Part shown: piece after piece, positions 19,729-21,686 of the stretch
How the letters are laid out: every line of letters starts with the position of its first letter
Position numbering within the stretch: position 1 is the first letter of the stretch
Source: Escherichia coli
GTDB taxonomy: Bacteria; Pseudomonadota; Gammaproteobacteria; Enterobacterales; Enterobacteriaceae
DNA: 64,000 nt
Assembly (NCBI RefSeq): GCF_044324875.1
Contig: NZ_CP172187.1
Reading direction: 5' to 3' (one strand)
Made by a program: the position numbers and the translations under genes
Notes under the pieces: model-generated
The model's input: only the letters and a program-made list of their open reading frames with translations
What the model was told of the DNA's origin: nothing
Databases searched by the model: none

Positions 19729-21686
19729 ATGTCAGTTACAGAGTCTAAGACAAAAACGGAGCGTAAATCCAGCCGTAAACCTGCAAAAACGCAGGAAACT
19801 GCACTGTCTGCCCTGCTGGCGCAGACGGAGGAAGTGAGCGTGCCGCTGGATTCACTGATTAAATCACCGCTGAATGTGCGCACGGTGCCGTATTCTGCGG
19901 AGTCCGTCAGTGAACTGGCTGATTCCATTAAGGGAGTCGGCCTGCTGCAGAATCTGGTTGTTCATGCCCTGCCAGGTGACCGTTACGGTGTCGCCGCAGG
20001 TGGTCGCCGACTGGCAGCACTCAACATGCTGGCAGAGCGTGACATCATTCAGGCTGACTGGCCTGTCCGCGTGAAAATTATTCCGCAGGAGCTGGCGACG
20101 GCTGCATCGATGACCGAGAACGGTCATCGTCGGGATATGCACCCTGCCGAACAGATTGCCGGATTCCGCGCAATGGCGCAGGAAGGCAAAACACCTGCGC
20201 AAATCGGTGATTTGCTGGGCTATTCACCCCGCCATGTCCAGCGAATGCTGAAACTGGCTGACCTTGCGCCTGTCATCCTCGATGCGCTGGCAGAAGACCG
20301 CATCACCACCGAACACTGTCAGGCGCTGGCGCTGGAGAACGACACCGCGCGTCAGGTGCAGGTGTTTGAAGCCGCTGCCAGTCAGGATGGGGTGGAAAAC
20401 CGGATGTGCGGGTTATCCGCAACCTGATTACGGAAAGTGAAGTGGCGGTGAAGGACAACACTAAATTTCGCTTTGTGGGGGCTGATGCTTTCTCGCCTGA
20501 CGAACTGCGCACCGATTTGTTCAGCGATGACGGGGACGGTTATGTCGACCGCGTGGCGCTCGATGCCGCCCTGCTGGAAAAACTCCAGGTTGTTGCAGAG
20601 TCCCTTCGGGAAGCAGAAGGCTGGGAATGGTGCGCCGGGCGCATGGAGCCAGTCGGTGAGTGCCGTGAGGATGCCGGAACATACCGCTGTCTGCCGGAGC
20701 CGGAAGCGGTGCTGACGGAGGCGGAAGAAGAACGCCTGAACGAACTGATGACGCGTTACGACGCGCTGGAAAACCAGTGTGAGGAATCCGACCTGCTGGA
20801 AGCAGAAATGAAGCTGATGCGCTGCATGGCGAAGGTCAGAGCGTGGACGCCGGAGATACGTGCCGGAAGCGGTGTGGTGGTGTCCTGGCGTTATGGCAAC
20901 GTATGTGTCCAGCGTGGTGTGCAGTTGCGCAGTGAAGATGACGCGACTGACGACGCTGACCGCACGGAACAGGTGCAGGAGAAAGCGTCAGTGGAGGAAA
21001 TCAGTCTGCCACTGCTGACGAAAATGTCTTCCGAACGCACGCTGGCAGTCCAGGCGGCACTGATGCAGCAACCGGACAAATCCCTGACACTGCTGGCATG
21101 GACGCTCTGCCTGAATGTGTTTGGCAGCGGAGCGTACAGTAAACCAGCACAAATCAGCCTGGAATGTAAACATTATTCGCTGACCAGCGATGCGCCGTCA
21201 GGGAAGGAAGGTGCCGCATTCATGGCGCTGATGGCAGAAAAAGCCCGTCTTGCGGCCCTGTTACCGGAGGGATGGTCACGGGACATGACGACATTCCTTT
21301 CACTCAGTCAGGAGGTGCTGTTATCCCTGCTCAGTTTCTGCACCGCGTGCAGCATCCACGGCGTTCAGACCCGCGAGTGTGGTCACACGTCACGCAGCCC
21401 GCTGGACACGCTGGAGAGCGCCATCGGTTTTCACATGCGCGACTGGTGGCAGCCGACAAAAGCAAACTTCTTCGGACACCTGAAAAAGCCGCAGATTATC
21501 GCAGCCCTGAATGAGGCAGGACTGTCCGGTGCCGCACGGGACGCGGAGAAGATGAAGAAAGGCGATGCGGCTGAACATGCAGAGTTCCATATGAAAGACA
21601 ACCGCTGGGTGCCTGGCTGGATGTGTGCACCACGTCCACAGACGGATACCACTGAACGCACTGATAACCTGGCTGATGCCGCCTGA
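19729..21686 (+). pseudogene. ParB-like nuclease domain leading-region protein, reading frame broken near 20396-20410 (would be ~652 aa if continuous)
   Basis: Two overlapping ORFs (19729-20427, 20406-21686) in different frames; ParB/Spo0J-like N-terminal region; shift sits at an A4 run. Confidence 0.7.

What the first reader, a model, noticed from the sequence alone, without database searches (positions are those of the whole stretch)
19729..21686. ParB-like nuclease gene carries a frameshift at an A4 run
Two overlapping ORFs (19729-20427 and 20406-21686) together span a ~652-aa ParB-like protein. Adding one A at 20396-20399 restores a continuous frame (…GVEKPDVRVIRN…). This is either a homopolymer sequencing error or genuine inactivation.
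Basis: seen in the sequence. Interest (0 to 1): 0.4.

Follow-up and report, generated by a model that had tools for sequence, protein, structure and literature searches.

The report
Real frameshift in plasmid ParB-like gene
A conjugative-plasmid gene for a ParB-like DNA-binding protein (yfhA/parB2) is split in two by the loss of a single C. The same broken allele turns up in at least eight other public assemblies, so it is a real, inherited but ordinary gene-inactivating mutation rather than a sequencing error.

Summary
The two overlapping ORFs (19729-20427 and 20406-21686) exist as described. Together they match a 652-aa ParB-like protein that lies between ssb/DUF905 and psiB/psiA in the leading region of an IncF-type plasmid.

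The lesion is not at the A4 run (20396-20399). Intact orthologs have A4 or A3 there, never A5. The only difference from a 99.9 % identical intact gene is the loss of one C from a CC pair about 21 nt upstream (GCCGCCTGC -> GCCGCTGC; the surviving C is 20375). The true junction reads ...FEAACQSGWGGKPDVRV.

The exact 232-aa frameshift product and the 426-aa second ORF are encoded on eight independent public contigs (four NCBI draft genomes, four Logan assemblies of SRA runs). Three of these lack the group II intron that splits ssb in the window. About 31 kb of the window aligned to close relatives has no stray 1-nt indel. So this is a genuine, inherited mutation.

It removes the conserved ~430-aa C-terminal region and leaves the ParB CTP-binding and HTH modules. 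In a spread sample of 60 plasmids, 10 had no intact gene call, and 7 of those were checked and found broken. Published evolution experiments found that loss of yfhA is selected. The finding is ordinary and of low interest.

The parts
19729..20427 (+). ORF1: the 5' part of the ParB-like gene (yfhA/parB2/YubM). It has 216 native codons, then 16 out-of-frame codons (ASQDGVENRMCGLSAT), then TGA. It retains ParB_N (aa 38-131) and HTH_ParB (aa 136-219).
20375..20376 (+). The actual lesion. One C of a CC dinucleotide is missing (intact GCCGCCTGCC, window GCCGCTGCC). It falls in codon 217 (Cys) of the native gene.
20396..20399 (+). It is unchanged relative to intact orthologs (A4 or A3 in all) and is not the frameshift site.
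20406..21686 (+). ORF2: GTG at native Val227 through the native stop. It is 100 % identical to residues 227-652 of the intact protein. This is the conserved C-terminal region, which has no Pfam family and no solved structural relative. Whether it is translated is unknown.
19432..19665 (+). Upstream DUF905 gene (ykfF/yfjA type), in the same operon.
21741..22175 (+). psiB, the next gene downstream. It starts about 1.3 kb after the premature stop, so polarity on psiB is possible. This is an inference.
22172..22891 (+). psiA, the last gene of the ssb-DUF905-yfhA-psiB-psiA cluster.

Best explanation
The gene is the leading-region ParB-like gene of enterobacterial conjugative plasmids. It is called yfhA in IncI plasmids, parB2 in pED208 and YubM in UniRef, and by gene order it is yfjB in F. 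In this plasmid it carries a genuine, heritable 1-nt deletion: one C lost from a CC pair in codon 217.

Translation from the normal start therefore yields a 232-aa product of 216 native residues plus 16 aberrant ones. This product keeps the ParB CTP-binding N-domain and the helix-turn-helix domain, but lacks the family-wide conserved ~430-aa C-terminal region. The gene is thus a frameshift pseudogene or truncated allele, not an assembly artefact and not a recoding site.

Shown:
- the position of the deletion;
- its presence in independent data sets and in two different backbone states;
- which domains are retained and which are lost.

Inferred:
- loss of the full-length function;
- possible reduced expression of psiB/psiA through polarity;
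- that such loss is tolerated or even favoured, because published work shows the gene is dispensable for transfer and that its loss can raise transfer rate in some hosts.
For: (1) The only difference from a 99.9 % identical intact gene is one missing C. All intact orthologs keep the CC.

(2) The exact 232-aa and 426-aa products are on record. They are encoded on 8 contigs: GCA_022972835.1, GCA_022972715.1, GCA_902848135.1, GCA_902846475.1, ERR2060076, ERR1790084, ERR1622252 and SRR8891666. The tool lists 13 samples in all. All 8 carry the deletion probe and are 100 % identical to the window across the gene.

(3) L017, L018 and L023 join window positions 16226 and 18888 directly. They therefore lack the 2661-bp group II intron present in the window, so the allele exists in two backbone states.

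(4) The window has 0 single-base indels over 17.3 + 6.4 + 7.9 kb against its closest tra-region relative. yfhA is the only real gene found split in a frame-split scan.

(5) Domains: ParB_N and HTH_ParB lie wholly in ORF1. The C-terminal region is conserved in 2238 cluster representatives with the same architecture.

(6) Natural disruption is common. 10 of 60 evenly sampled plasmids have no CDS call. Seven of these were checked and are broken by nonsense codons (151, 287, 442), a 59-nt insertion, or multiple frameshifts. pTB-nb2 has an independent 1-nt deletion.

(7) Literature:
- Loss-of-function mutations in yfhA, including frameshifts, arose in parallel in evolved IncI plasmids, and deletion raised transfer in one host (PMC10104558).
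- parB2 deletion had no effect on transfer or SOS (PMC8406263).
- The Frpo2 operon is dispensable for F transfer (PMC9849209).
Against: - I could not see reads for the window's own assembly.
- Some of the eight contigs could come from the same isolate or outbreak as the window, so the number of truly independent lineages is unknown. Within the gene they are all identical.
- The sequencing platform of those runs was not checked.
- Loss of function is inferred. The N-terminal module is intact and might keep DNA or CTP binding.
- ORF2 has a GTG with a weak GGTGG-like motif 9 nt upstream, so a separate C-terminal fragment cannot be excluded.
- The allele is rare: 7-8 contigs, against 650 contigs carrying the identical intact protein.
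Confidence: 0.85

Rival explanations
1. Sequencing or assembly error: the real plasmid has an intact gene, and one base was dropped by the assembler or basecaller.
For: It is a single-base deletion in a short run (CC). The same deletion is absent from PLSDB (best 5000 records examined) and from RefSeq complete E. coli genomes. One close relative (pTB-nb2) and two other plasmids (L011, L012) show indels that could be assembly errors.
Against: The identical deletion, giving the exact 232-aa product, appears on 8 other contigs from at least four separate submissions. The window has no other 1-nt indel over ~31 kb against near-identical relatives, and no other split gene. The site is a dinucleotide, not a long homopolymer, and it is not a CCWGG methylation motif (read directly from the sequence).
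Confidence: 0.04
2. Functional split or recoded gene. Either ribosomes shift -1 in the 20370-20427 overlap to make a full-length protein, or the N-terminal ParB module and a re-initiated C-terminal fragment (GTG 20406) work as two polypeptides.
For: ORF2 is in the -1 frame relative to ORF1 and overlaps it by 22 nt. A GTG with a GGTGGA motif 9 nt upstream sits inside the overlap. Both halves are undamaged.
Against: Thousands of orthologs are single 652-aa ORFs. The two-ORF state is a rare private allele. There is no X XXY YYZ slippery heptamer in the overlap (read directly from the sequence). The allele is too young (no substitutions) to show selection on ORF2.
Confidence: 0.05
3. Adaptive loss of function in the wild: the frameshift was selected because losing YfhA raises transfer or lowers cost in particular hosts. 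It would not be neutral decay.
For: Parallel loss-of-function mutations in yfhA arose in evolved IncI plasmids, and deletion increased transfer in one host strain (PMC10104558). About 1 in 6 sampled natural plasmids carries a disrupted copy, broken by diverse lesions. The allele has persisted long enough to occur with and without the ssb intron.
Against: No fitness or transfer data exist for this allele. The effect in the literature is host-specific and absent in another strain. The allele is rare relative to its intact twin. The high pseudogene frequency is equally expected for a dispensable gene under relaxed selection.
Confidence: 0.25

Closest known systems
YfhA / ParB2 / YubM (YfjB by gene order in F): the leading-region ParB-like protein of IncF, IncI and IncK conjugative plasmids
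   Same: 100 % identical to the intact 652-aa protein apart from the frameshift. The synteny is the same: ssb - DUF905 - gene - psiB - psiA. There is a full-length match to phrog_7783. Loss-of-function alleles, including frameshifts, are documented (PMC10104558).
   Different: This copy is split at codon 217 by a 1-nt deletion. The particular allele has not been described in the papers I could search.
Chromosomal and plasmid ParB/Spo0J, Noc and KorB CTP-dependent DNA clamps
   Same: The N-terminal ~215 residues match ParB_N and HTH_ParB. They also match solved ParB/Noc structures by sequence (1vz0 at E = 1e-17; 4umk, 7nfu, 6sdk) and ParB, Noc and KorB (8qa9) by fold. The GxxR and ENxxR motifs are invariant across the family (G91, R94, N131).
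Ordinary frameshift pseudogenes in plasmid accessory genes
   Same: A single-base deletion, a premature stop 16 codons later, and both halves otherwise intact.
   Different: Nothing unusual. The truncation point happens to fall just after the DNA-binding module.

Membership tests
ParB/Spo0J/Noc/KorB superfamily (ParB_N + HTH) | ParB N-terminal domain (PF02195) above the Pfam gathering score | tested here: met
   31.4 bits versus cut-off 26.3 for the intact protein; 33.9 bits for ORF1
ParB/Spo0J/Noc/KorB superfamily (ParB_N + HTH) | Central ParB helix-turn-helix DNA-binding domain (PF17762) | tested here: met
   34.6 bits versus cut-off 22.6, residues 136-222. Foldseek matches to ParB, Noc and KorB DNA-binding domains.
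ParB/Spo0J/Noc/KorB superfamily (ParB_N + HTH) | CTP-binding motifs (GxxR box; ENxxR) | tested here: met
   AGGRRLAA aligns with AGERRYRA, and ENGHRRDM with ENLQREDL, of Spo0J 1vz0. G91, R94 and N131 are invariant and E130 is >=90 % conserved in 83 diverse homologs. Binding and hydrolysis themselves are not testable here.
Type I partition system (ParABS) | Adjacent ParA ATPase gene and a parS centromere | tested here: not met
   The neighbours are ssb, DUF905, psiB and psiA in the window and in all relatives inspected. No parS search was made.
Type I partition system (ParABS) | Short C-terminal dimerisation domain of canonical ParB | tested here: not met
   The label comes from the old name of PF02195. 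The best matches are CTP-binding clamps, not nucleases.
Leading-region YfhA/ParB2 family | ~650-aa architecture and synteny ssb-DUF905-X-psiB-psiA | tested here: met
Frameshift pseudogene (real mutation) | A single indel relative to intact orthologs, with both halves otherwise conserved | tested here: met
Frameshift pseudogene (real mutation) | The same lesion seen in independent sequencing data | tested here: met
   8 contigs from NCBI and Logan carry it. The independence of the isolates was not verified.
Frameshift pseudogene (real mutation) | Loss of protein function | not testable with these tools
   Inferred from loss of a region conserved in 2238 cluster representatives.
Programmed ribosomal frameshift | Two-ORF arrangement conserved among orthologs, with a slippery heptamer in the overlap | tested here: not met
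   Orthologs are single ORFs. There is no X XXY YYZ motif in 20370-20427.

The most novel reading that the evidence does not exclude
The frameshift is one of many independent natural knock-outs of the leading-region ParB-like gene. About 1 in 6 sampled plasmids carries a broken copy, through nonsense codons, a small IS-end insertion or frameshifts. Under this reading, these knock-outs reflect host-specific selection in the wild to remove the C-terminal part of YfhA while often keeping the N-terminal CTP/HTH module. That would mirror laboratory evolution, where yfhA loss raised transfer rate.
Probability: 0.2. Interest if true: 0.45.

Novelty: already known. Interest (0 to 1): 0.2.

Why it matters
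For annotation, the gene should be marked as a frameshifted pseudogene, with the lesion at 20375/20376 rather than at the A4 run, and it should not be 'repaired' as a sequencing error.

Biologically the case is minor. It adds one natural example to published evidence that the leading-region ParB-like gene is dispensable and is a frequent target of loss-of-function mutations that can alter plasmid transfer in a host-dependent way. The small census done here (10 of 60 sampled plasmids without an intact gene call) suggests that a proper survey could be informative for plasmid epidemiology.

Tried and rejected
- An 80-nt probe across the site found no identical match in PLSDB or in RefSeq complete E. 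coli. The window's source is therefore not in those collections.
- An exact 34-nt probe in GTDB representative genomes gave 0 hits.
- The search for homologous proteins with the C-terminal region returned only 96-100 % identical proteins, which were useless for a deep alignment. The representative search supplied the diversity instead.
- Searching papers for 'yubM' alone returned neuroscience papers by an author with matching initials. 'yubM' together with plasmid and psiB returned nothing.
- Three papers held no statement on this gene: the Nature 2024 leading-region paper, the NAR 2025 paper and the 2026 bioRxiv preprint. 'ParB' there refers to hok/sok or to the ParB/parS imaging tool.
- PADLOC gave no meaningful defence-system match.
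- Mismatches in contigs L021 and L022 looked at first like diversification of the allele. They lie outside the gene: most are in the first 25-50 nt at the contig edge, and one is a SNP at 19521 in the DUF905 gene. They were not used as evidence.
- Programmed frameshifting and transcriptional slippage at the A4 run were considered and rejected. There is no slippery motif, the run is too short, and orthologs are single ORFs.

Full report
**Observation.** An A4 run is at 20396-20399. The surrounding genes are a plasmid ssb, a DUF905 gene, psiB, psiA and hok/sok, followed by oriT-proximal genes and a complete F-type tra operon. The region is therefore the leading region of an IncF-type conjugative plasmid. 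More than 5000 PLSDB plasmids hold a homolog of the 1958-nt stretch, almost all annotated as a single 'ParB/RepB/Spo0J family partition protein'.

**Where the frameshift really is.**
- The closest intact genes are 1959 nt long, one more than the window.
- Aligned with p135-2 (L001), the window differs at one position only. One C is missing from GCCGCCTGCC, giving GCCGCTGCC, and the surviving C is window 20375.
- The A4 run is identical in the intact genes. Across thirteen relatives the run is A4 or A3 (GGTAAACC), never A5, while the GC[CT]GCCTG[CT] motif is always complete.
- The native junction is ...QVFEAACQSGWGGKPDVRVIRN.
- ORF1 encodes 216 native residues plus a 16-residue aberrant tail. 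ORF2 starts at a GTG that is native Val227 and is identical to the native protein through residue 652.

**Artefact or real mutation.**
- No record in PLSDB (best 5000) or in 5426 complete E. coli genomes matches an 80-nt probe across the site perfectly. On that evidence the deletion looked private to this assembly.
- However, an exact-sequence look-up found both the 232-aa product, with its aberrant tail, and the 426-aa ORF2 product in the 15-billion-protein collection.
- They are encoded on eight contigs from four NCBI draft genomes and four Logan assemblies of SRA/ENA runs. The tool reports 13 samples with these contigs.
- All eight contain the deletion-specific 34-mer and are 100 % identical to the window across the gene.
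- Three of them (L017, L018, L023) run straight from window 16226 to 18888. They lack the 2661-bp group II intron that interrupts ssb in the window (intron 3' end confirmed by Rfam at 18767-18887). The allele thus exists in at least two backbone states.
- The window is clean elsewhere. There are no single-base indels over 17.3, 6.4 and 7.9 kb aligned at 99.1-99.9 % to pGZM7d. A scan of relatives' ORFs against the window found no other real gene split between frames.
- I conclude with about 0.9 confidence that the deletion is a genuine, inherited mutation. Reads for the window's own assembly could not be inspected.

**What the gene is.**
- Residues 38-131 match ParB_N and residues 136-222 match HTH_ParB, both above Pfam thresholds. 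The last 430 residues match no Pfam family.
- NCBIfam gives the generic parB_part domain above its cut-off, and sub-threshold hits to PRTRC ParB and Noc.
- By sequence the N-terminal part matches solved Spo0J, ParB and Noc structures. By fold, a confident AlphaFold model (pLDDT 89.5) matches CTP-bound ParB, Noc and KorB over residues ~35-220 only.
- The CTP-pocket motifs are present: AGGRRLAA aligned to AGERRYRA, and ENGHRRDM aligned to ENLQREDL. G91, R94 and N131 are invariant in 83 diverse homologs. That these motifs bind CTP in ParB proteins is established knowledge, recalled rather than tested here.
- There is no ParA neighbour, so this is not a partition locus.
- 'Nuclease' is only the historical name of the Pfam domain.

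**What is known about it.**
- In IncI plasmids the gene is yfhA, in the ssi3 operon ykfF-yfhA-psiB-psiA. In experimental evolution, loss-of-function mutations (premature stops, frameshifting insertions, deletions) arose there in parallel, and a yfhA deletion increased transfer rate in one clinical host but not in another (PMC10104558).
- In pED208 the homolog ParB2 is translocated through the T4SS. Its deletion affected neither transfer nor the mating-induced SOS response (PMC8406263).
- In F, the Frpo2-driven genes ssb-yfjA-yfjB-psiB-psiA are expressed early from ssDNA and are dispensable for transfer efficiency (PMC9849209). Equating yfjB with this gene is my inference from gene order.

**Natural frequency of disruption.**
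- In a sample of 60 plasmids taken at even steps down the ranking, 10 had no CDS under the match.
- Seven of these were fetched, and all are truly broken:
  - nonsense codons at positions 151, 287 and 442;
  - a 59-nt palindromic insertion that, from memory, resembles IS10 ends (two records fetched; two more show the same two-piece match signature);
  - two records with multiple frameshifts, which may be assembly noise.
- pTB-nb2 has an independent 1-nt deletion at codon ~511.
- Nonsense substitutions and insertions cannot be homopolymer errors, so real pseudogenisation of this gene is common.

**Mechanism and consequence.**
- Shown: the deletion truncates the protein after the DNA-binding module and removes a strongly conserved C-terminal region.
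- Inferred: full-length function is lost.
- Inferred: the 25-kDa N-terminal fragment might still bind DNA or CTP.
- Inferred: ribosome release 1.3 kb upstream of psiB might reduce psiB/psiA expression by polarity.
- Programmed frameshifting is unlikely. ORF2 is in the -1 frame, but the overlap contains no slippery heptamer, and orthologs are single ORFs.
- Re-initiation at GTG 20406 (GGTGGA 9 nt upstream) cannot be excluded.

**Verdict.** This is a real but ordinary frameshift pseudogene in a known, dispensable plasmid gene. Novelty: already known kind. Interest is about 0.2. The only mildly interesting angle is that natural knock-outs of this gene appear frequent and match a published adaptive route. 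A proper census and isogenic transfer assays would test that idea.

Noticed in passing
window 16227-18887 (+); ltrA ORF 16840-18741; ssb exons 16188-16226 and 18888-19376: A group II intron (RT/maturase ORF; Rfam Intron_gpII domain at 18767-18887) interrupts the plasmid ssb gene after codon 13. Intron-less contigs (L017, L018, L023) define the exact boundaries. This is a known arrangement (pEK499-type plasmids): 395 PLSDB records cover most of 16000-19500.
   Followed up: partly
window ~53488-56119 (- strand ORFs 54352-55998 and 53580-54578): An IS21-family element (istA with rve and Mu-transposase C domains; istB ATPase) is inserted about 100 nt upstream of traD, in the 3' end of the small ORF between traT and traD. 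It is absent from the closest tra-region relatives (pGZM7d, FDAARGOS_1287 plasmid) and might affect traD expression.
   Followed up: partly
window ~19490-21890: The DUF905-yfhA segment is ~100 % identical to IncK2/Z and IncI-gamma/K plasmids (p135-2), whereas the flanks match IncF plasmids (pF374-3 and an O78 plasmid). This looks like a recombinant patch of about 2.4 kb within the leading region.
   Followed up: partly
L002 (NZ_CP033633.1 pTB-nb2), equivalent to window 21261: The closest PLSDB relative without a CDS call has its own, different 1-nt deletion (a T) in the same gene, splitting it at codon ~511. Whether this is real or an assembly error is unknown.
   Followed up: no
L010 and L009 (NZ_CP017633.1, NZ_CP041439.1), nt ~1375 of the gene: A 58-59-nt perfect-palindrome insertion (CTGATGAATCCCCTAATGATTTTTACCAAAATCATTAGGGGATTCATCAG) disrupts yfhA in several IncF plasmids, including what appears to be the same insertion in one Klebsiella plasmid. 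It looks like a miniature element made of IS10-type ends; that identification is from memory and was not tested.
   Followed up: no
window 12165-12796, 15528-16166, 23584-24229: Three ~630-nt direct repeats (93-99 % identical to each other's counterparts in relatives) lie in the leading region upstream of gene blocks. They are probably the Frpo/ssi single-strand promoter repeats described for F and ColIb-P9. This was not examined.
   Followed up: no
window 27181-27290, 22997-23173, 61274-61350, 49209-49294, 12932-13033: Rfam matches above gathering score: traJ 5' UTR and FinP, sok antitoxin RNA, and the antisense RNAs AS-traI, AS-traG and AS-pc01. All are expected for an F-like plasmid.
   Followed up: no
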